From a virus (lineage: Duplodnaviria; Caudoviricetes): 39,612 bases of DNA. A program made the position numbers and the translations under genes. Below are positions 1-39,600 of the stretch, one piece after another. The DNA lies in the IMG/VR virus record IMGVR_UViG_3300020716_000017, positions 1 through 39,612 of that record; one strand, written 5' to 3'. The notes under the pieces are model-generated. The model had not been told where the DNA came from and did not search any database. It worked only from the letters and a program-made list of their open reading frames with translations. Within the stretch, counting starts at the first letter, position 1; every line of letters starts with the position of its first letter.

Positions 1-310
1 CCTTGCCTCGCTGCCATGTCCCGTGTGGTGGCAATTCTACGTCTGGCCTTCTCTGATACTGCCGGCGCTTCACTTCGGTTCGACGTTGTGAGGCGGTCAT
101 CCCACCCCACACGCCAAAGTCCTTCTCATGAACGAGCGCCCAATCCAGACACTCCTGCTGAACAGGACACCCTAGACAGAACCGACACGCTGCTTTCAGG
201 TCCGCCTTGATTGCCTCCTTGGTCCTGAACACAGTGATGTATTCGTCGGGGTAGAACACGGATGTCATGTCCTGGCCCCGACACTTCGCTTCCTCCCGCC
301 AATCCTTCAC
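1..310 (-). CDS. whiB: WhiB-family Fe-S transcription factor (3'-partial, runs off window start)
   Basis: Manual translation from GTG at 310: MKDWREEAKCRGQDMTSVFYPD...CRFCLGCPVQQECLDWALVHEKDFGVWGGMTASQRR. Four-Cys spacing and GVWGG signature. No stop in window, so absent from the ORF track. Confidence 0.92.
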   Translation of the reverse strand, partial: MKDWREEAKCRGQDMTSVFYPDEYITVFRTKEAIKADLKAACRFCLGCPVQQECLDWALVHEKDFGVWGGMTASQRRTEVKRRQYQRRPDVELPPHGTWQRGK

Positions 311-609
311 TATGCGATAGCCATCTTGATCGCCGTGAGCAACTTGGCGTGTTCGGCAGCAACCTTGCAAAGTTCATCATTGCTTTCCGAGAACTCTTGG
401 ATGCGCTGAATGAAGTCCTTGTTTTCGGCCTCGCAATCGGCCAGTTCAACCAACAACTTGCGAATGATCGGGTCCACATCTGAACCCCATCCTTCCTGAC
501 CCAAGTGTTCGGTGATCCACTCAACCGACCGCTCCGATATTGCTTGACGCTCTGCGTTCATTTCTGCCTCCTGTTCGTAGACTTCAAGTGTCTGCTTCAT
601 CATTGCCAT
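310..609 (-). CDS. Hypothetical coiled-coil protein
   Basis: 99 aa, translationally coupled to both neighbours. Confidence 0.7.
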   Translation of the reverse strand: MAMMKQTLEVYEQEAEMNAERQAISERSVEWITEHLGQEGWGSDVDPIIRKLLVELADCEAENKDFIQRIQEFSESNDELCKVAAEHAKLLTAIKMAIA

Positions 610-9837: not shown

Positions 9838-10763
9838 TACCAGCCCTCGGTGCGAGTGTACTGACGCTGCAATCGAGCGGCTTCCTCAGAGATGCGCTGT
9901 TCGTAAGTCATCATCAACGCCTGCACAGAGTTGCTGACAGCAAGCGAGGGAACCTCGGGAGCCTTGCGAGGGTCGGGCTGCGACTCCATGAAGTTACGCT
10001 TGATCTCACGGGGGAGCGTAAGCTGGATCTCCACACCTAGCGGTGGGATGTCGGCCATCGTGGTCGTCATGCCAGTTGTTGTAATATCGGTGCCAAGGCA
10101 GGTTGGCTTGTTGTCGCTGCCAAGCGCAGTTAGGTCAAGCGGAACAAACGCTGCGCTGTACTGAACGTAGATCGGCTGACCTGGATACCCACCCTCGTAG
10201 AACACGATGCCCATGCCCGATGGGAAGGCAGAGTCACCGATGCTACGAAGCACCTTCCACTTGGCAATCTTGGGGTAGTTCCTTGTCGGGAACGGGATCT
10301 TGTGACGCACTTCCATGATGTCAATGAAGTTGTCGGCCTTAGCTTGCGTCAAGTCGTAACCCATGTAGACAGGGTTGTAGGTGATCGTCTGCATACCCAC
10401 ACGGAACAGTCCGTTGTCGGGTGATGACAACCGGTTGAGTTCGTCGTTTAGAGTAACGGCGATGTCAAACTTGGTGTACTTGGGCTGAATGTAGATCAAC
10501 GTGCCTGCATCGTGGGCAGCAGCGGTGGAGCCTTCGTAGCCACGGGCGACAGTCACCGAACCGTTGGACCAGCCAGTGACGTACATAACCTCAAGATCCA
10601 CCGAGATGATGGCACCTGCACGCATGGCTACCGAGTTCGCCGGCGTGACGTTGAAGGTTGTGGTGGTATTGTCAAGGGCGGCGGTAAGTTGAACGGTGGA
10701 GTCAATGGCCCCTGAGTAAACCCTGCGCCAAGACTTCTCGACCCAATCGTTGAACGTAGTCAT
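9837..10763 (-). CDS. Head-tail adaptor / tubular-A-like protein
   Basis: MTTFNDWVEK start, helical ends, inserted beta module, position. Confidence 0.55.
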   Translation of the reverse strand: MTTFNDWVEKSWRRVYSGAIDSTVQLTAALDNTTTTFNVTPANSVAMRAGAIISVDLEVMYVTGWSNGSVTVARGYEGSTAAAHDAGTLIYIQPKYTKFDIAVTLNDELNRLSSPDNGLFRVGMQTITYNPVYMGYDLTQAKADNFIDIMEVRHKIPFPTRNYPKIAKWKVLRSIGDSAFPSGMGIVFYEGGYPGQPIYVQYSAAFVPLDLTALGSDNKPTCLGTDITTTGMTTTMADIPPLGVEIQLTLPREIKRNFMESQPDPRKAPEVPSLAVSNSVQALMMTYEQRISEEAARLQRQYTRTEGW

Positions 10764-11962
10764 GCTGTTTCCTCATCCATGTAAAAGGGTCGGGGGGTTT
10801 CATACAGAGCCTTCTCGTAGGGGTCAAGGCACTTTGGATCAACAAAGCCTGCGTCGTACAGGACACGCTTTACATCGGCAGTAACCTTGTAGTCCTTGCC
10901 CTGTCGGAAGGACAACGATTCGCCGGCGATGGTGCAGGCAATAGGTTCGGTCACTCGCATTGAGAGGTGCGTCTGCGGGCACTCAATCCACTTGCCACGT
11001 TTGCCGCTTTTGGCTTCGGGAAGATGCTCGAGGATCTGTTGTGCTGCGATGTCCCAAGTGAACTTCTTGCGAATCTCCTTGGCTTTCTTCTCGGCACGGA
11101 TGGCGTGGGCCTGGTAGCTCTTGTAGACCACCTTGAGTTGCGCCAGAGCCTCGTCCTCGCTTGGCTCCCACCAATCGCCTGAGCGACCAACGATGTCAGT
11201 CTCGGCAGGTGTGAACCCACATGACACCTTCAAGCCGTACTCAGCGAACTCGGCATGTCCATGAGCGTTAGACAGGATCGTTGGCATACCCTGAGCAATG
11301 GTCTGATGAGGGATCATGCCCCAACCTTCGCCACGGGCCAGCCCAAGGTAGACGTGAGACTGTGCGTAAAGTTTGGCTTCATCTTCCTCGGACATCTCAT
11401 GGTCAAGCACAATGATGTCGCTGCGAGGGTAAGCCAAGTTGACGTTGCCCTTGATGATGAGTCGAGGGGCGGGGTGACTGTTCTTTCCGCACCACTCAGC
11501 GAATCGCTTGAACACCTTGATGGCGATGTCAATACCCTTGCGTCGGCCACCCTTGCCACCCGTGATGATGGTAAAGGGGTCCGACATAACGCGAGTCGTT
11601 ATGCTCCACCTGTCGTAATCACAGCCAAGGCAGAACTTTGTTGTGTTGTGGTTTACTTTGCCAAACATCAACAAATTCTGTTCCGATGGCACAAACACAT
11701 GGTCATAGAGCGGAACGGTGGTGAGATGTTCCATCGCCAGTTGAGTTGACTCCCACATGGTCAGCAAAGAAACGTGCTGTCCCTTAAACCATCCGTTAGG
11801 ACGTTGCGGTGGGGACATAAAGATAACGTGGCTCGCCGTGTCGTCCGGTGCGCCGTTGTGTACCACATGGACACCTGCACGTTCAAGGGCGCGTACCAGT
11901 TCAATGCTCATCCGTCCGTACCCCGTGGTGGGGGTCGGTGCATAGAACACTTGGAGCTTCAC
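10760..11962 (-). CDS. Glycosyltransferase family 4 (GT-B)
   Basis: TGYGRMS, TMWEST, VFVPS, RRKGID, RGEGWGMIPHQTIAQGMPTI motifs. Confidence 0.9.
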   Translation of the reverse strand: MKLQVFYAPTPTTGYGRMSIELVRALERAGVHVVHNGAPDDTASHVIFMSPPQRPNGWFKGQHVSLLTMWESTQLAMEHLTTVPLYDHVFVPSEQNLLMFGKVNHNTTKFCLGCDYDRWSITTRVMSDPFTIITGGKGGRRKGIDIAIKVFKRFAEWCGKNSHPAPRLIIKGNVNLAYPRSDIIVLDHEMSEEDEAKLYAQSHVYLGLARGEGWGMIPHQTIAQGMPTILSNAHGHAEFAEYGLKVSCGFTPAETDIVGRSGDWWEPSEDEALAQLKVVYKSYQAHAIRAEKKAKEIRKKFTWDIAAQQILEHLPEAKSGKRGKWIECPQTHLSMRVTEPIACTIAGESLSFRQGKDYKVTADVKRVLYDAGFVDPKCLDPYEKALYETPRPFYMDEETA

Positions 11963-31847: not shown

Positions 31848-32102
31848 TCAATCTTTGTAATCCTGATAGTGCCGGTCATCATCATCCTCGTCCCCTGGAC
31901 AGTAGATCGCCTGATCGTGGAGCCTGATACCTTCAAGCACACCTTCCAGTGAACTAGATGTTACATGGTATCCGCAGTTCTCGCATTCCCATGATTCCTC
32001 AACCAACTCTGGATCGTAGTGCCGGCGATACTCAATCCAATCTCGAAGGATCAGTCCAGCGATCAAAACCCAAGGCAACACGAAAAGCGCAGCGGAGATC
32101 AT
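31848..32102 (-). CDS. Small membrane-anchored CxxC protein
   Basis: N-terminal TM, CENCG, acidic tail. Confidence 0.6.
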   Translation of the reverse strand: MISAALFVLPWVLIAGLILRDWIEYRRHYDPELVEESWECENCGYHVTSSSLEGVLEGIRLHDQAIYCPGDEDDDDRHYQDYKD

Positions 32103-32830
32103 GTCATTACCCTACAGCCTCCCATCGTGGCCTGCCGAAACCCTTGCTTTGAGCAATGTTGGGAAGCCCATGAATCAGTGAAACACAACCGTAATATTTG
32201 TCTCATTGCTCAAACACCAATAATCCCTTGGGTTACTACGCAGTAACTTGACCTGACACACCGTCAGAAAAATGTCGTGTGATACGATGCGTGGGTTCCA
32301 CCGAGGAAACACAGAACCCGCAAAGCGCAACCTAATAAACAACAGGGCGCTTGCGCTTCCTTCTTTCAGCTACCGCACCTGCCGGTTTGCTCTACGCCTC
32401 GCTTCGCTCGTTGTCATGGTCGAGTCATGTACGTTGTCCAGTGACTCTGCCTTGTTCCGGTTGGTTGTATTCAGCAGCTTTCAGTGTGACGAAATAATGG
32501 CTCTGAAGGAGTGGATCGGACCAATTGCCGTGATGTCGGCCTTGGCGATTGTCTGATGGCAAAATGAGGGCTGTACGTCAGGTAGATATACGGGCCTTTG
32601 ACAGCCACCCGCCTCGGCACACTCCCGGTCGAACCCCCAGACTGGCGATGGTTTGTGATGTTGTCTCACAATGTCGGACGTTCCAGGGGAATGGTCGCAC
32701 GTTCTCACATGTCTCACGATGATGGACAGGGTAGTTATGGGGAATGGGTAAGACTTGGCATATGACGATTTCTGATAGTTCCTGGCCAACATCACAGCAT
32801 GAGACAGGCCAGCTCAAGGTAGCTCGTCAC

Positions 32831-32885
32831 GATCGAAGAAATCTTCCCGTAAAGTCTTGACATATGAGACAGGGTTAATTACGAT
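32831..32885 (+). promoter_or_regulatory. Early sigma70/SigA promoter P1 with upstream conserved box
   Basis: TTGACA (32857-62), 17 nt, TACGAT (32880-85); GATCGAAGAAATCTT upstream. Confidence 0.85.
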
Positions 32886-32920
32886 CAAGAGTGGACCATC
32901 CAGCTAGGCAAGGAGACAAC

Positions 32921-33817
32921 ATGGCCACCATTAGTGAACTAGTCCCGATTGATTCCGTAAGTGTTCACCGCAACTATCGCGAGACCGTCGCTGATGAAGT
33001 CAGACGCATTGCAGACGACATGCGCGAGAATGGATATCGCGCCGCCTATCCGATCCTTACCGACATGCACGGCACCATCATTGCGGGCCACCATCGACAC
33101 GCCGCGGCAATCCTGGCGGGCCTAACGCATGTCTACGTTTCTAAGAGTGATGCAATGGCGGGATCAGCTGATGCACTACTAGAACAGATAGCGGAGAATG
33201 ATCTACGTCATCAATCGACTATCGTCGAAGATGGACGCGCATATCTGGCACTGGTGGACAGTGGCATGTCTACTGATGAGATCGCAAGGCGGTCGCGCCA
33301 TTCCCGTCGATACGTTGAAGATAGGTGCACCGTCGCGGGGCTTGACACCGTTGCGCAATCGCTTGCCATTTCTAAGGGTATTACTTATGGGTTGGTGTTG
33401 GCAGAGTTCCCGCATGACATGCAAGCAGACCTAGCGCGTAGGTTTTCAGAGCTTCCACGATCAGAGTTCTTCGCCGCGGTGGATAAGGCTCGCGCGGCAT
33501 GGCATGAAAGCATGAACGCCGGTGGAATGTTCGGTGATGGATTCACTCTAGAGTCCCAAGAATGGGACCTAGCCGCGGCCGCCTACGTTACTGAGGCAAT
33601 GCGAGAGGCGGAAGAGAAGCGCCAAGAGGAACTAGCCGCGCGCACCATCGTAGTGAAAGATACGCCTATGGGCCGCCATGAGCTTGCCGCGGCGCTAGGC
33701 GTATCAGTCGCCGCCATTGACAAGCGTATCCAACGCGGCACCCTTACCCCAGATATTACGGTGTCGGGTTCACCTATCTGGTACGGGTCTACCGTGGCCG
33801 AGATCATCTCGGCATGA
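32921..33817 (+). CDS. ParB/Srx-domain protein with central HTH and C-terminal AlpA/excisionase-like HTH
   Basis: IIAGHHRHAAA, QIAENDLR, GMSTDEIARR, MGRHELAAALGVS...PIW; AAGGAG RBS before ATG 32921. Confidence 0.85.
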   Translation: MATISELVPIDSVSVHRNYRETVADEVRRIADDMRENGYRAAYPILTDMHGTIIAGHHRHAAAILAGLTHVYVSKSDAMAGSADALLEQIAENDLRHQSTIVEDGRAYLALVDSGMSTDEIARRSRHSRRYVEDRCTVAGLDTVAQSLAISKGITYGLVLAEFPHDMQADLARRFSELPRSEFFAAVDKARAAWHESMNAGGMFGDGFTLESQEWDLAAAAYVTEAMREAEEKRQEELAARTIVVKDTPMGRHELAAALGVSVAAIDKRIQRGTLTPDITVSGSPIWYGSTVAEIISA

Positions 33818-33870
33818 TCAAAGAAATCTTATCAGAAACTATTGACATAGTGCTACTACGTCACTACCGT
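33816..33870 (+). promoter_or_regulatory. Early sigma70/SigA promoter P2
   Basis: TTGACA (33842-47), 17 nt, TACCGT (33865-70); GATCAAAGAAATCTT at the same offset as in P1. Confidence 0.8.
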
Positions 33871-33906
33871 TCTAATCAGTAACCAACTACAGAAGGAGAC
33901 AACGCA

Positions 33907-34413
33907 ATGACCAACACACAGGACACCACCCAAGCGCAGGAATACGCCGACAGCATCGCGGAGACGCTGCGCGCGTGGGATCTTATTTCTGACGCGTGGA
34001 CCGAAGCCGTGGGTCATGATGACGAGGCGCGCTACGCCGCCGTGTGGCTCCGTTGGCAGGTGCGCCACGGGGACGCAACGCAAGCGCGCTACGCACCGTT
34101 GGCTCTGTCTGAGATTGACGACCTTGGAGGTTTCGAGTTCGTTGAGGAGCAGGGCGGCCCCGGTATGGCATGGGGCTATGGCGCGTTGGACGCCTACGCG
34201 ATCACGCATCAGCGACCAGGCCAGAAAGACGACGTGCGCGGTGCTGAGTTCGTCGTATCGTTGGGCGGCCCGAGTTGCTACGTCAAGAACGACGGCAGCA
34301 ACACCACCATTACCGTCTACTGGGGCAGCGACACCGGGACAGCTCACGCAAGCTGCCAGGCCGTGGACGACGCCGCCGAAGCGATCATGGACGCCGCCGC
34401 CTACGGTTTCTAG
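33907..34413 (+). CDS. Acidic early protein of unknown function
   Basis: AAGGAG RBS; SLGGP...VYWG motif. Confidence 0.85.
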   Translation: MTNTQDTTQAQEYADSIAETLRAWDLISDAWTEAVGHDDEARYAAVWLRWQVRHGDATQARYAPLALSEIDDLGGFEFVEEQGGPGMAWGYGALDAYAITHQRPGQKDDVRGAEFVVSLGGPSCYVKNDGSNTTITVYWGSDTGTAHASCQAVDDAAEAIMDAAAYGF

Positions 34414-34478
34414 ACCAACGTCGAAACGCCGTAAGGCGTTCACCGGGAATGGTCCCCCGGTGCTGATGAGACAGACCG
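34413..34478 (+). ncRNA. Type II hammerhead ribozyme
   Basis: GTC-GAAA-CGCC(GTAA)GGCG-T-T / CACCGGG(AATGGTCC)CCCGGTG-CTGATGA-GAC. All core nucleotides and three stems present; loop I TGGTC complementary to flanking GACCA. Confidence 0.92.
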
Positions 34479-34494
34479 AACTAGGGAGGTTCTA

Positions 34495-34851
34495 ATGCAA
34501 CGGATTACACCTATCTACACCGCCACGGACGCCGAGCAACACCTTGCTCAAGACTGGCACGGAGGTCAAAACACCATGCTCCACGCGGTCGCGAGCACTG
34601 GCGCACTGGCACCGGGCGCTGCGTGGCGCGACACTTCAGAAAACCGTTGGAACCTTGCCGCCATGCTGGGCGCAGAGCTGCGCGACGTGCTGCGCGAGAT
34701 TCCGAAGGTTTCATTCATCGACCACGATGCCGACACCGCCACCGTTAAGGCGTGGATCTGCAAGATTGACGCCGTGACCGATGCGCTTGAGGATGGCTTG
34801 CCCACGTTCACCGACGCTTTGCGCGCCGCAGGTGTGCAGGTGACGGCATGA
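34495..34851 (+). CDS. Early hypothetical protein
   Basis: GGGAGG RBS; DWHGGQNTMLHAVASTG motif. Confidence 0.85.
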   Translation: MQRITPIYTATDAEQHLAQDWHGGQNTMLHAVASTGALAPGAAWRDTSENRWNLAAMLGAELRDVLREIPKVSFIDHDADTATVKAWICKIDAVTDALEDGLPTFTDALRAAGVQVTA

Positions 34852-35033
34852 CCCCATACGGAAACGATGTTTTCAGGCTCTCGATTCTTTGGGCGCTTGT
34901 CTTGTTCGTCATCGTGGCGGCAGGCACTCCAGAGAACGATCCGACCATGCTGGGACCGATAGCCGCGCTGATCGTGGGCGCGGGATTCGGTTGGGCGTTG
35001 GCAATCCGTCGAGAACTCCGCCGCCGGCGGTAG
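34848..35033 (+). CDS. Small two-TM membrane protein
   Basis: ATGA overlap; two hydrophobic helices, Arg-rich tail. Confidence 0.75.
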   Translation: MTPYGNDVFRLSILWALVLFVIVAAGTPENDPTMLGPIAALIVGAGFGWALAIRRELRRRR

Positions 35034-35082
35034 CTCATCGGCTAGGGCTTGCGGCTTCGGTCGTGAGTCCTGGCCGGTAGTT
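35032..35082 (+). ncRNA. Long G.U-rich C(UUCG)G hairpin (candidate RNA processing/stabilising element)
   Basis: 19 contiguous pairs 35037-55/35060-78, six of them G.U; extends further with one bulge. Confidence 0.65.
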
Positions 35083-35112
35083 CACCGGGAGACAATAAGA
35101 AAGTAGGAAAGT

Positions 35113-35280
35113 ATGACTTACCGCATAGGGCAAAGCCCTGAGAGCATCGCCGCAGAGCGATTCTATGGGACACCGAAAGACCACGCCGCGCTGCTGGATG
35201 GGCCAGACCCGCGCCACACGCCGGGGATCTGCCTAACGTGCCGCATCATTGACGAAGGTCGAAGCAAGGTGGAAGCATGA
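35113..35280 (+). CDS. Small early protein (55 aa)
   Basis: MTYRIGQSPE...HTPGICLTCRII; AGGA RBS. Confidence 0.7.
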   Translation: MTYRIGQSPESIAAERFYGTPKDHAALLDGPDPRHTPGICLTCRIIDEGRSKVEA

Positions 35281-35438
35281 CCGCCGCCGCTGTTTACCGT
35301 GAACTAGAGCGGACCAGCGATGGGGGCTGGCGCTACTTCGCCCCCGGTACTGGCAACCCGCACAGGGCCTACGGCTACACCAAGCGTGAAGCCGCTCGAC
35401 TCATCGCCGCACGACTAGCTGAGAAGGTGACAGCATGA
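35277..35438 (+). CDS. Small early protein (53 aa)
   Basis: MTAAAVYRELER...YGYTKREAARL; ATGA overlap. Confidence 0.7.
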   Translation: MTAAAVYRELERTSDGGWRYFAPGTGNPHRAYGYTKREAARLIAARLAEKVTA

Positions 35439-35553
35439 CACCGTTTCAGGATGACGCGCTACGGCTGTTTTAGCCCACACCTAACCCACACCCAGCACGG
35501 AGACGAGGAACGTGCTACGATCACCCACAGCTAGTCGAGAGACGAGCGCGATG

Positions 35554-35584
35554 CCCCACCGGATGTCTCCCCGGTGGGGATTTT
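35554..35584 (+). terminator. Intrinsic terminator ending the plus-strand island
   Basis: CCCCACCGG-8 nt-CCGGTGGGG followed by ATTTT, in a convergent gap. Confidence 0.7.
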
Positions 35585-35669
35585 CGCGTCTGGACATTGG
35601 CACTTTACGGCGCATTGGCTGAGCGATGCTTTGATTATTTGGCTCTGCGATGCTTGAAACATTGGCACC

Positions 35670-35894
35670 TTACGCCGACTCGCTCACCGCAAGACTGATA
35701 AGTCGCACCAAACGCTTCACGGCAGCCCTTGTGACGCACTCAGGGTCGCTGTAATCGTATTCGTAGCCCTCGGGTGTGTATCCCATGCTCAGCAATGCAA
35801 TCTCAGGGTTTGATTCAAGCATCATATGGTCTGCACGGGCCTGGATCTTTAGATCATTGGCCTCGGCAAGCTCTTTCATGCGCTCTAGGCTCAC
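35670..35894 (-). CDS. Hypothetical protein
   Basis: GTGA-coupled 74 aa ORF. Confidence 0.65.
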   Translation of the reverse strand: MSLERMKELAEANDLKIQARADHMMLESNPEIALLSMGYTPEGYEYDYSDPECVTRAAVKRLVRLISLAVSESA

Positions 35895-36094
35895 GACAGC
35901 GCCTTCTGCGCTTGTTCAAGGATGTAGCACACGGTTTCATAGGCACGATTTGGGTCGTAGCCCTCAGTGGTTCCCCGATTCTGCCGTGATGCAAGCCAGT
36001 TCTGGCGCTCCTGATCGGTGAGTTTGATCGTGATGTTCACGGTGCAGGTGCAGCGAGCGTCAAACTTGAACTCATCGTGTCGAGCGCAACTCAT
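35891..36094 (-). CDS. Hypothetical protein
   Basis: ATGA start inside repeat copy 1; TVNITIK motif. Confidence 0.65.
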   Translation of the reverse strand: MSCARHDEFKFDARCTCTVNITIKLTDQERQNWLASRQNRGTTEGYDPNRAYETVCYILEQAQKALS

Positions 36095-36339
36095 CGCTCC
36101 CCCTCTAGTGCTGCTCGGGCTGCCCTAATGAACTCTGACGAAAACGGAAACCGCTCATCTTCGGGCCAGTCGGCAACCTTCTTGGCTGCCTTTCGGCTGA
36201 TCGTGATGGTCACGGTGTCAAGTTTTGGTGCTACAAACAATTCACAATTTGATTCACAAACCCAACCAGGACGACAAGGGCCATCGTCGTAAATATGTTG
36301 ATTGGCTCTATGCCCACAATTCACGCAGATATTTTTCAT
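36091..36339 (-). CDS. Small Cys-rich cassette protein ending DTVTITISR...RAALEGER
   Basis: Start at the ATG inside repeat copy 2. Confidence 0.7.
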   Translation of the reverse strand: MKNICVNCGHRANQHIYDDGPCRPGWVCESNCELFVAPKLDTVTITISRKAAKKVADWPEDERFPFSSEFIRAARAALEGER

Positions 36340-36361
36340 CGCTCCCCCTCTAGTGCTGCTC
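36091..36361 (-). repeat. 26-bp exact direct repeat GAGCAGCACTAGAGGGGGAGCGATGA (36091-36116, 36336-36361)
   Basis: Identical copies encoding AALEGER-stop plus RBS and next ATG. Confidence 0.95.
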
Positions 36362-36638
36362 AAAGCGTGTTGTAAACTGCCGGTGCGAACTCCCCGTAGT
36401 TGATGTAGCGGTGAAGGACCTCACGGCTGATCGTTATGGTAACGAAAGTTGGCACAAAGTGACTTTGTGTTCCATCCCGCTGCCCTAAAGTGCTGCTCGT
36501 GATGGTCACGGTGTCACTACGGTCGTGCTGATCCTGCGGTGATCCGAGTGTTTCTGTGGGCTGGTCGGCCTGAATCGCTACGCTCGTGGTGTCGGTCGCT
36601 TTGCTGCCAGTAGTGTCGGAATCTTGACGTTCGGTCAT
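36360..36638 (-). CDS. Degenerate/fused cassette protein with two VTIT motifs
   Basis: SDTVTIT and FVTITISR; TGA where copy 1 has CGA. Confidence 0.55.
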   Translation of the reverse strand: MTERQDSDTTGSKATDTTSVAIQADQPTETLGSPQDQHDRSDTVTITSSTLGQRDGTQSHFVPTFVTITISREVLHRYINYGEFAPAVYNTL

Positions 36639-36988
36639 GCTCCTGCCCCTCGATAAGACGACATAAGGCTCCTGAGTCCGTCCAAACGGCTTTCTGAGGC
36701 TCTCTGTGCGCTTCTAATCGCAGTTAGGGACTCTCGCTGCACTAAGTAGTTTCGGAGGCTTACAGACGCTTCTAGCGTGGCATGGTCCTCAACCTGGTCC
36801 ACCGTCACCTTGACCCCTCGGCCTGCTGCATCGTCACGAAACTTCATTCGAGCCTTAGCGAACTCCACTTTGTAGTCTGCCTCGGCCTCGGCTGCTGCTT
36901 GGGCGATGCTCGCAGTTTCCTCAGCGAGCTTGCCTAGTCGCCTGCCCTCTTGCTCAATCGCCTCAGCGATCTGATTCATGCTCAACAT
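36635..36988 (-). CDS. Helical coiled-coil protein (possibly UvsY-like)
   Basis: AEADYKVEFAKA...RLDGLRSL; adjacent to resolvase. The functional call is tentative. Confidence 0.5.
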   Translation of the reverse strand: MLSMNQIAEAIEQEGRRLGKLAEETASIAQAAAEAEADYKVEFAKARMKFRDDAAGRGVKVTVDQVEDHATLEASVSLRNYLVQRESLTAIRSAQRASESRLDGLRSLMSSYRGAGA

Positions 36989-37323
36989 TCGTCACGTTCC
37001 TTCCACAGTCTTGCGAAGTCAGCCAACGTCAGCACAACGTAGCCATGCTCCGCACCCTTGCCTCGACGTTTGGCGACCACGATGCCGTAGTCAGCCTTAG
37101 CGTTGGCACGTTCACGCTCTGCCTCACCGAGCCAGCCGGGGAGATCCAGTTTGCCCACGTTCTTACATTCAATAACTAGACCTGGCAGACCGTTGATGTC
37201 GCCCTTGTCCATTGTGTTGCCTGCCCCGTAGCGCCTCTCAGCGTAGGGAAACCCATGCTCTGCTAGGTACTTGGCTACATCTCGCTCCCATTGGGAACCC
37301 TTGGCTTTCTGTGGTGTTGTCAT
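36982..37323 (-). CDS. Holliday junction resolvase (Hjc-like PD-(D/E)XK)
   Basis: KAKGSQWERDVAKYL, KGDI, VIECKN; GGAG RBS before ATG 37323. Confidence 0.85.
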   Translation of the reverse strand: MTTPQKAKGSQWERDVAKYLAEHGFPYAERRYGAGNTMDKGDINGLPGLVIECKNVGKLDLPGWLGEAERERANAKADYGIVVAKRRGKGAEHGYVVLTLADFARLWKERDEC

Positions 37324-38015: not shown

Positions 38016-38344
38016 CTGTCTCCTTTATTCTCTGGATGATCCATTCCACGACAGGAACGGCAACGGCATTACCCATTTGACGATAGCGAGAACTATCAGC
38101 TTGGTCAATCAATCCCTTGATTGGGTCAATCCGTTGCGATGTCCAACCGTCAGGGAATCCTTGCAGCCGCTCGCACTCAATTGGAGTCAAACGTCGAACT
38201 GCTTGGTCAGTCATGACTGCTGCCCCCCCCCCCGCTCTTTCTGAGAGTCGGGCTTGTTTCTTGGCTTGGCTGTGCGTCCAGTCCTTGCGTGTGGCTGAAC
38301 ACAATAAGAACGGTAGCCCTGCTCTCCAGTCCTCGGTAACTCAT
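38002..38344 (-). pseudogene. dcm: C-terminal part of a C5 DNA cytosine methyltransferase, frameshifted at a G11 tract
   Basis: Motifs IX-X: VRRLTPIECERLQGFPDGWT, RYRQMGNAVAVPVVEWI. An upstream TRD-like segment joins in frame only with G10. Motifs I-VIII are absent from the window. Confidence 0.8.
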
Positions 38345-39600
38345 ATGGAATTGATGCCAGCAATTCTAGGTCCGTCCTTGATCGCCACGAGATTAGCGTT
38401 GACATAACTGATATTTCGTTGTTCGTGCCACTCGCTCGGGAAAAACGTCACGAGACGAGACGAATGAAAGCGGCACGTAATCTCGGGCACGAACGCTGAG
38501 TAGTTGGCATCAGTGAAGTACCAAAACGAGTTCTCGTTGTAGAAGGCGACGTGCGTCGGGTCCTGGAAAGCGCCTCGGCCATCAGTGCTCGGCGTATTGC
38601 TGAGCAGAATTCCTCCATGATCAAGAAGTCGGTAGAGCTCATTGAATAAAGCGATCTTGTCAGGGATGTGCTCAAGGAAATCGACGGCGCGAATCACCCC
38701 GACGCTTCCGTCAGGCAAATCGATTCCCTTGGTCACGTCACCCACGATGTTGACTCCCTCAGCCTTGTGCTGATCGACACCGAGATAGCCATCAGGCTTC
38801 CGATGAGCGGCTCCGAGATCAAGGCAAAGCAGTCCCCGTCGCTGAGCCCAAGCCAACGCATTCGCCTCGATGTTGGCATCATAGAGTGCGACCGTTTCAG
38901 CTTGAATCCTTGCGTTCAGTTTGGGATCGCGCTGAGTGTTCCTGTCGTGCATTCTCTGGAGGTATAGGCATTCGTTAATCATGTGAAAATCCGAGTGCTG
39001 ATAGAGCCTGGACATGATGTCCTGATCGTCCAAGATGTCTAACTCTGGGTTGTAGCCGCCGATCGCTTCGTACGCCGTGCGACGGAACGCTCGAACATGA
39101 TTGGGTGCGAACCAGATGTAACTAACATTGCTTGGGAGCGGTTCCATTGATCTGCATTGCAAATAGGCCTTCCCGTCGATCTCAACTTCATCGTAAATCC
39201 AGCCCATGGCCGAATTGAATCGATCGTCGTTCCGGCTGCCGTCCTCATTGATCTGTGCAAAGTGGCTGTAGACAAATCCCGCGTCGGGGTGGCTATCGAA
39301 GGCCTCGACGACCTTCTCAAGACACCTTGAGGCCAGAATGTCGTCATGGTCGTACTCGACGAGGAACTCTCCCGAGGCAAGTGAGCAGGCCCACCGCTTC
39401 GCAGCGCCGACGCCAGTGACTGACGAGTCGGCAACTGAGACCTTGATACGCGGATCGCTGACCGGAGGTGTCCAACGGTTCGAACCGTTCAGGACAACGA
39501 TCCACTCCCAGTCCTCGTAGGTCTGGGCAAGCATCGAACGTGCGCATTCATCAAGATGTGTTCTGCGGTGGCTGGGCGTGAAGACAGAGACGCGTGCCAT
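38341..39600 (-). CDS. Glycosyltransferase family 2 fused to a SAM-dependent methyltransferase
   Basis: VSVFTPS, QTYEDWEWIVV, EYDHDD, IGGY; then LDLGAA, DFLEHI, YRLL..GG, QDPTH. Confidence 0.88.
   Translation of the reverse strand: MARVSVFTPSHRRTHLDECARSMLAQTYEDWEWIVVLNGSNRWTPPVSDPRIKVSVADSSVTGVGAAKRWACSLASGEFLVEYDHDDILASRCLEKVVEAFDSHPDAGFVYSHFAQINEDGSRNDDRFNSAMGWIYDEVEIDGKAYLQCRSMEPLPSNVSYIWFAPNHVRAFRRTAYEAIGGYNPELDILDDQDIMSRLYQHSDFHMINECLYLQRMHDRNTQRDPKLNARIQAETVALYDANIEANALAWAQRRGLLCLDLGAAHRKPDGYLGVDQHKAEGVNIVGDVTKGIDLPDGSVGVIRAVDFLEHIPDKIALFNELYRLLDHGGILLSNTPSTDGRGAFQDPTHVAFYNENSFWYFTDANYSAFVPEITCRFHSSRLVTFFPSEWHEQRNISYVNANLVAIKDGPRIAGINSI

What the first reader, a model, noticed from the sequence alone, without database searches (positions are those of the whole stretch)
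34413..34478. Intact type II hammerhead ribozyme between two early phage genes
Seen: stem II GTC(34420-22)/GAC(34470-72), GAAA, stem III CGCC-GTAA-GGCG, NUH site GUU (cleavage predicted after 34440), stem I CACCGGG/CCCGGTG, then CUGAUGA. Loop I TGGTC can pair with GACCA (34413-17) or GACCG (34474-78). Established: this is the canonical hammerhead core, and pseudoknotted type II variants are known from phage and bacterial intergenic regions, with roles largely unknown. Inference: it cuts the P2 polycistron 27 nt after one stop codon and 54 nt before the next ATG, leaving a hairpin-capped 5'-OH downstream mRNA and processing early transcripts without host RNases.
Basis: partly seen in the sequence, partly recalled or inferred. 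Interest (0 to 1): 0.85.

Follow-up and report, generated by a model that had tools for sequence, protein, structure and literature searches.

The report
Phage hammerhead ribozyme at gene-swap joint
A complete self-cutting RNA motif (a type II hammerhead ribozyme, known from phages since 2011) sits between two small genes of a freshwater phage, where it likely cuts the shared message; related phages keep the same 92-base stretch but carry different genes on either side, so it likely also serves as a joint for gene swapping.

Summary
Every helix and core base is at the stated place, and Rfam Hammerhead_II matches at 48.8 bits (cut-off 37). Covariation holds in relatives. The real pseudoknot partner is the 3' GACCG; the 5' GACCA is mutated in sibling alleles. 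The GUU cut site is a minority form (13 of 151) but circulates in three other samples; siblings L095 and L096 have GUC. The layout (stop codon, ribozyme, ribosome-binding site, start codon) is the norm among the phage type II hammerheads I retrieved, and processing of phage polycistrons was proposed in 2011 (PMC3088659). So this is a new member of a known kind, and the scan has noted many like it on other DNA. One addition: a 92-base block from stop codon to start codon is 95% identical in related phages whose flanks are unrelated. Lake populations pair it with at least three upstream and three downstream genes. It likely doubles as a recombination joint that gives any incoming gene a fixed 54-base leader. 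Cleavage, expression and function remain untested.

The parts
33842..33870 (+). Putative promoter P2 (TTGACA, 17 nt, TACCGT); inferred start of the transcript that holds the ribozyme
   Evidence: Sequence; 42-nt block 79% like the promoter at 32857-32885 (D2); not itself called by the scan
33907..34413 (+). Upstream gene, 168 aa, unknown function; its tail 34398-34411 can pair with stem III or with the pseudoknot tail
   Evidence: no family; 5 homologs; look-alike clusters are viral hypothetical proteins; for the competing helices
34410..34501 (+). Conserved 92-nt cassette: stop codon, ribozyme, pseudoknot tail, ribosome-binding site, start codon
   Evidence: 88 of 92 identical to L095, 87 of 92 to L096; flanking 60 nt only 14-20 of 60
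34420..34472 (+). Type II hammerhead core: stem II 34420-22/34470-72, GAAA 34423-26, stem III 34427-38, stem I 34441-47/34456-62, CUGAUGA 34463-69
   Evidence: Rfam RF02276 48.8 bits; positions; pair counts
34438..34440 (+). NUH triplet GUU; predicted cut between 34440 and 34441
   Evidence: siblings L095 and L096 have GUC; GUU also in runs X4, X6, X7
34450..34454 (+). Loop I pseudoknot strand (UGGUC)
34474..34478 (+). 3' pseudoknot strand (GACCG), the conserved partner of loop I
   Evidence: Unchanged in L095 and L096; 3 of 5 pairs with two-sided changes in A3; matches the consensus in PMC3088659
34484..34489 (+). Shine-Dalgarno-like GGGAGG of the downstream gene, 5 nt before ATG
   Evidence: Sequence; kept in L095 and L096 before unrelated genes
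34495..34851 (+). Downstream gene, 118 aa, unknown function
   Evidence: no family; 5 relatives besides itself; replaced by unrelated 53-aa and 97-aa genes in L095 and L096

Best explanation
This is a canonical pseudoknotted type II hammerhead ribozyme motif between two small phage genes; it is predicted to cut its own transcript after base 34440, and it likely also serves as the shared homology at which the neighbouring genes are swapped between related phages. Shown: the motif, its covariation, the 3' pseudoknot partner, and the 92-nt cassette recurring between unrelated genes. From known chemistry: the cut would leave a 2',3'-cyclic phosphate on the upstream message and a 5'-OH on the downstream one, which starts with the 7-bp stem I hairpin and has a fixed 54-nt leader holding the ribosome-binding site. 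Inferred: this makes the downstream gene's stability and translation independent of what lies upstream, as the synthetic RiboJ insulator is used to do. Because the cassette carries the stop, the ribosome-binding site and the start codon, a crossover inside it joins any upstream gene to any downstream gene and leaves both intact. GUU may cut more slowly than the siblings' GUC.
For: Rfam match above cut-off. In alignment A3 (12 sequences) 93.3% of cells pair and 11 of 20 pairs change on both sides; 0 of 500 shuffles reach this and slid partners give 23-42%. Loop I pairs (4 or more Watson-Crick) with its own 3' tail in 97 of 151 unique motifs, against 25 of 151 for the 5' side and a mean 19% for swapped tails. 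A stop lies within 15 nt upstream in 100 of 151 (control 7.5%) and a Shine-Dalgarno plus start within 45 nt downstream in 128 of 151 (control 16.7%). Tandem phage hammerheads cleave in vitro and in E. coli (PMC3088659) and type II motifs cleave in vivo in Desulfovibrio (PMC8782182). Swapping: cassette identity against flanks. L095 and L096 share the upstream side but differ downstream. X6 record 5 spans the cassette with an L096-type gene on each side. In X19 three different genes follow the same start. 9 of 22 hammerhead families keep one flank and change the other.
Against: No cleavage or expression data. GUU is a minority triplet (13 of 151; 12 of the 13 come from a few loci, L011-L061, several clearly related). 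One X5 contig (depth 5.2) carries a core change T34464C (U4C), so some circulating alleles may be slow or dead. The upstream gene tail can compete with stem III (probability 0.40 in 34390-34500) and with the pseudoknot tail. A3 was selected by a pattern that fixes most of stems I and III, and related sequences inflate shuffle tests. Recombination also occurs outside the cassette, at short GCC-rich matches (L096 internal deletion; junctions at 34371 and 34392), and one search has no control of ribozyme-free gene joints. Run contigs are of low depth (2-19) and graph branches are not single molecules.
Confidence: 0.7

Rival explanations
1. The GUU allele is a slowed or decaying copy. The cassette persists mainly as a ribosome-binding site and recombination homology, and cleavage is dispensable in this phage.
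For: Siblings L095 and L096 have GUC. 134 of 151 motifs have GUC, and GUC and AUC are reported as the most effective triplets (PMC9217987, passage). A U4C core allele is seen in X5. X19 record 9 (61 nt, centred on 34464, 3 differences) has the size of a one-site bubble at the same base (inferred, the letter is not listed). There is only one ribozyme in this genome, whereas L094 has seven in 5 kb.
Against: All core bases, three stems and the pseudoknot are intact in the window. The sibling differences at 34433 and 34443 keep the stem I pair (C-G to U-G) and, in L095, a GNRA loop. GUU is listed as an active site (PMC3138052, passage) and recurs in 12 other natural motifs.
Confidence: 0.15
2. Cleavage is gated by translation of the upstream gene. 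Its untranslated tail pairs with stem III or with the pseudoknot tail and blocks folding, and passing ribosomes release it.
For: Window duplex -16.7 kcal/mol, matched by 1% of shuffles and 3.4% of swapped upstream sequences. The lowest-energy fold of 34400-34500 pairs 34400-34411 with the 3' tail. The stop codon lies 9 nt from G12.
Against: Not general: 7 of 149 motifs at p<=0.05, as chance gives. Absent in L095 and L096, which use the same cassette behind another gene. Found after the fact.
Confidence: 0.08
3. The cut marks the downstream (or upstream) message for rapid decay and so damps these genes, as glmS cleavage does, rather than stabilising or insulating them.
For: glmS cleavage followed by RNase degradation is the one well-understood bacterial case (PMC6765202, passage).
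Against: The 3' product begins with a 7-bp hairpin (probability 0.78-0.99) and keeps a strong ribosome-binding site. The near-constant leader length (median 57.5 nt, 10th-90th percentile 50-69) fits a translated product better. No metabolite gate is known for hammerheads (recalled).
Confidence: 0.07

Closest known systems
Type II hammerhead ribozymes of bacteria and prophages (Rfam RF02276; Perreault et al. 2011, PMC3088659, parts 2-3 of 8 and passages read)
   Same: Topology with open stem II, canonical core, loop I to 3'-tail pseudoknot, short stem II, intergenic place beside small hypothetical phage genes, and proposed processing of long transcripts. The paper notes that the flanked genes are 'not constant'.
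   Different: Single copy, not a cluster; GUU rather than GUC. Here the exchange of flanking genes around one near-identical cassette is seen directly among sibling phages; the word 'recombination' does not occur in that paper's main text.
PeSL promoter/stem-loop cassettes of T4-type phages (Arbiol et al. 2010, PMC2839356; abstract and outline seen)
   Same: A short conserved regulatory cassette in a variable early region that serves as the homology for modular gene shuffling.
   Different: PeSLs are promoter-terminator units repeated within a genome and can make mini-circles. This is a ribozyme plus ribosome-binding site, single-copy in this genome, so exchange needs a second phage; no circle was seen.
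RiboJ synthetic insulator (described in PMC8750797, passages)
   Same: A self-cleaving ribozyme placed before a ribosome-binding site that removes upstream sequence and gives predictable expression.
   Different: Engineered. Here the same effect is only inferred, and the type II topology leaves the ribozyme's own stem I as the 5' hairpin.
Desulfovibrio vulgaris type II hammerheads (Olzog et al. 2021, PMC8782182, passages)
   Same: Predicted type II motifs near phage-like genes, shown to cleave in vivo and in vitro.
   Different: No such data exist for this motif; different host group.

Membership tests
Type II hammerhead ribozyme (RF02276) | Rfam score above the gathering threshold over the full model | tested here: met
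   48.8 bits against 37, model positions 1-66 of 66
Type II hammerhead ribozyme (RF02276) | Core CUGANGA, GAAA, A15.1-U16.1 pair and NUH triplet | tested here: met
   the triplet is GUU
Type II hammerhead ribozyme (RF02276) | Stem II open (holds both ends); stems I and III closed by loops | tested here: met
Type II hammerhead ribozyme (RF02276) | Pseudoknot of 4 or more pairs between loop I and the 3' tail | tested here: met
   4 Watson-Crick pairs plus one U-G; 3 of 5 pairs covary in A3
Type II hammerhead ribozyme (RF02276) | Covariation of the stems among relatives | tested here: met
   11 of 20 pairs with two-sided changes; five of the stem I cases rest on L077 alone
Type II hammerhead ribozyme (RF02276) | Self-cleavage after H17 | not testable with these tools
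   Needs in vitro transcription or end mapping
Clustered phage hammerheads flanking single genes (PMC3088659 Fig. 3) | Two or more ribozymes bracketing a gene | tested here: not met
   One motif in the whole 39.6-kb record by Rfam and by descriptor
PeSL-type shuffling cassette | Conserved cassette with exchanged flanking genes in close relatives | tested here: met
PeSL-type shuffling cassette | Promoter plus terminator content, repeated within the genome | tested here: not met
   No promoter or terminator called in 34410-34501; single copy
PeSL-type shuffling cassette | Mini-circles formed between copies | tested here: inconclusive
   No joints listed in 8 laid runs; contigs drop rare forms

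The most novel reading that the evidence does not exclude
Phage type II hammerheads are natural insulator-joints. The stop-ribozyme-RBS-start cassette is kept because it lets phages plug any early gene behind any other by recombination in about 90 shared bases and still express it from a standard self-cut leader. That would explain both why these ribozymes sit in hypervariable phage regions and why their neighbours are never constant.
Probability: 0.3. Interest if true: 0.6.

Novelty: new member of a known kind. Interest (0 to 1): 0.32.

Why it matters
The role of the many hammerheads in phage intergenic regions is still described as open (PMC6155905, PMC6765202). This locus does not change the class, but it supplies a small natural test set. 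One cassette occurs with GUU, GUC and U4C alleles and with at least three upstream and three downstream genes. Whether cleavage insulates the downstream gene, and whether the ribozyme is a preferred crossover point, can therefore be tested with a handful of reporter constructs and a breakpoint count.

Tried and rejected
(1) 5' pseudoknot with 34413-17: rejected; it is mutated in siblings and 5' pairing is near chance in the set. (2) Cleavage frees a hidden ribosome-binding site: no support. Native flanks closed the site more than shuffled flanks in only 53 of 133 cases; in the window the opening energy is 5.5 before and 4.6 kcal/mol after cleavage. (3) A conserved anti-stem-III helix: not general (7 of 149). 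(4) The ribozyme moved alone between distant phages: not needed; run X19 shows the window's two flanking genes inside an L095-type backbone, so the whole block can have moved. (5) U17 as an assembly error: rejected; contigs in X4, X6 and X7 carry it. (6) Function of the flanking proteins: no PHROG, Pfam or usable Atlas assignment. (7) Protein-based locus searches in viral contigs found nothing for the 168-aa gene and nothing with the single 118-aa protein. Its alignment gave 15 loci, 1 of which has a hammerhead at Rfam cut-off, about 700 nt upstream and not adjacent, so the downstream gene family is not tied to a ribozyme. (8) The pattern had stem I one base too long and does not match the window; its 67 loci served only as a general set. 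(9) No RNA holder was listed among sequencing runs; this says nothing on expression. (10) Cultured phages: one weak DNA match only. (11) L088 is identical to the window over all 5049 nt and was dropped from all counts.

Full report
Observation. The motif is present exactly as described. Rfam Hammerhead_II matches 34419-34480 at 48.8 bits against a cut-off of 37. It is the only ribozyme match in the 39,612-base record. My own descriptor also finds one hit, and none in 100 first-order Markov copies of the window.

Setting. The record is a phage: terminase, portal, capsid, amidase, ERF, SSB and a RusA-like resolvase lie on the minus strand. A short plus-strand block holds a ParB-like gene and five small unknown genes. 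All 24 runs listed as holding the stretch or part of it are freshwater or lake metagenomes (most hold only small shares and two may be its source). The host is probably an actinobacterium, on weak grounds: all 29 terminase matches among cultured phages are Streptomyces phages, with the top 12 at about 29% over 30% of the protein, and the related locus L095 encodes WhiB. A sigma-70-type promoter is called at 32857-32885. A second, weaker one at 33842-33870 shares a 42-nt block with it at 79% but was not called. 'Early' and 'P2' are therefore inferences.

Structure. In 12 related motifs (A3) 93.3% of cells pair and 11 of 20 pairs change on both sides. No shuffle of 500 reaches that, and slid partners give 23-42%. 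The retrieval pattern fixed much of stems I and III, so stem II and the pseudoknot are the informative parts: 1 of 3 and 3 of 5 pairs covary. A descriptor run over loci L001-L107 (L088 dropped as identical to the window) and window 31901-37000 gave 212 hits, 151 unique. Loop I pairs with its own 3' tail by four or more Watson-Crick pairs in 97 of 151, against 25 of 151 for the 5' side and a mean of 19% (maximum 27%) for swapped tails. This is the pseudoknot described in PMC3088659.

Cut site. The triplet is GUU. Among the 151 motifs, 134 have GUC, 13 GUU, 3 GUA and 1 CUC; the other 12 GUU cases come from loci L011-L061, several of them related. GUU also stands in contigs of X4, X6 and X7, so it is a real allele; L095, L096, X5 and a second X7 contig have GUC. 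GUU is described as cleavable (PMC3138052, passage), with GUC and AUC as most effective (PMC9217987, passage). Against full activity of all alleles: one X5 contig has T34464C, a U4C core change. X19 record 9 has the length and centre of a one-site bubble at that base, but its letter is not listed (inference).

Layout. An ORF stop lies within 15 nt upstream of G12 in 100 of 151 motifs (random positions 7.5%). A Shine-Dalgarno-like site with a start codon lies within 45 nt downstream in 128 of 151 (16.7%). The leader left by cleavage has a median of 57.5 nt, and the window's 54 nt is typical. I found no sign that cleavage uncovers the ribosome-binding site. The window's upstream gene tail can pair with stem III or with the pseudoknot tail, but this is not a family feature (7 of 149 at p<=0.05). 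It matters mainly for choosing an in vitro construct.

Exchange of neighbours. L095 and L096 belong to a related phage group whose ParB-like protein is 29% and whose resolvase is 45-49% identical to the window's. Yet 34410-34501, from the stop codon to seven bases into the next gene, is identical at 88 of 92 and 87 of 92 bases, while the 60 bases on either side match at only 14-20. Both end a different upstream gene at the same TAG, and each starts a different downstream gene. Eight runs were laid. In X6 one 510-base contig carries the window's allele with L096-type sequence on both sides. In X7 two contigs bring two other upstream genes to the cassette, one of L095 type and one resembling the window's own 55-aa gene. 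In X5 the L095-type allele sits before the window's downstream gene. In X19 the window's gene, the L095 gene and the L096 gene all follow the same start, and the window's two flanking genes are bordered by L095-type sequence. Loose ends were matched to by eye (27-30 of 30 letters). X4, X8, X11 and X20 add no new neighbour of this cassette, apart from a divergent X11 piece (9 differences in 57 bases) with its own upstream sequence. Across the retrieved set, 9 of 22 families of near-identical hammerheads keep one flank and change the other; of 223 pairs, 125 share both flanks, 51 share one, 33 share neither and 14 are partial. Limits: depths are low, graph branches are not molecules, many pairs are not independent, other junctions lie at short GCC-rich matches outside the cassette, and I have no control of ribozyme-free joints. 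The cassette is thus a joint, but not shown to be a preferred one.

Mechanism. Most likely the transcript from P2 folds the ribozyme just after the first stop codon and cuts after 34440. The downstream message then begins with a 5'-OH and the stem I hairpin and carries its own ribosome-binding site, so its fate no longer depends on the upstream gene. That is how RiboJ is used in engineering (PMC8750797, passages). The same conserved bases give homology for crossovers that leave both neighbours intact. The motif and the exchange are shown; cleavage follows from family knowledge; insulation is inferred.

Comparison with print. PMC3088659 (parts 2-3 of 8 and passages; supplements not read, and its Dataset S1 could hold close relatives) describes the class, the pseudoknot, the phage setting, the inconstant neighbours and the processing hypothesis, with cleavage shown in vitro and in E. 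coli. PMC8782182 (passages) shows in vivo cleavage of three type II motifs. PMC6765202 and PMC6155905 (passages) call the role open. PMC2839356 (abstract, outline) shows shuffling at PeSL cassettes. I found no paper naming hammerheads as recombination joints in eight searches. Only aimed at that question, and subscription journals are not covered. The scan holds 66 notes on such ribozymes in at least 65 genomes, and two notes suggest ribozymes as joints; I had written that idea down, and those notes are not independent evidence.

Verdict. Real, intact, and a new member of a known kind. The directly visible gene swapping around one cassette is a modest addition. Interest 0.32.

Noticed in passing
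window 35036-35082 (+): Long, nearly unbroken RNA hairpin with several G-U pairs and a UUCG loop (-36 kcal/mol, z -4.6) in the next intergenic gap of the same operon; it resembles an RNase III substrate. A similar hairpin occurs in three viral loci (L110-L112) that also encode a distant relative of the ORF at window 44-322.
   Followed up: partly
window 35083-35093 (+): An 11-base stretch identical to ribozyme positions 34438-34448 follows that hairpin; possibly a remnant of a second hammerhead, possibly chance.
   Followed up: no
window 36091-36116 and 36336-36361 (-): Identical 26-base joint (gene end, ribosome-binding site, stop/start) used twice between unrelated small genes and shared with L095 and L096; a second kind of gene-swap joint.
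   Followed up: partly
window 32823-32864 and 33808-33849 (+): Two promoter-like sites share a 42-base upstream block at 79%, possibly an operator for the ParB/HTH protein encoded between them.
   Followed up: no
L094 685-4050 (same phage type as L099): Seven type II hammerheads within 5 kb, one with a CUC and one with a GUA triplet.
   Followed up: no
L096 about 625-660: An internal deletion relative to L095 joins the end of the 128-aa gene to the middle of the 170-aa gene at a short GCC-rich match, leaving a gene remnant before the ribozyme.
   Followed up: partly
L108 313-361: A close relative of the ribozyme (89% over 54 bases) in a Solirubrobacterales genome bin, in line with an actinobacterial host range.
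   Followed up: partly
window 10760-11962 and 38341-39600 (-): Two glycosyltransferase genes (a GT4-type one, and a GT2 fused to a methyltransferase domain), possibly for DNA or virion modification.
   Followed up: no
window 35550-35585 (+): G+C-rich hairpin at the end of the plus-strand block where it meets the opposing operon, a likely terminator; read by eye.
   Followed up: no
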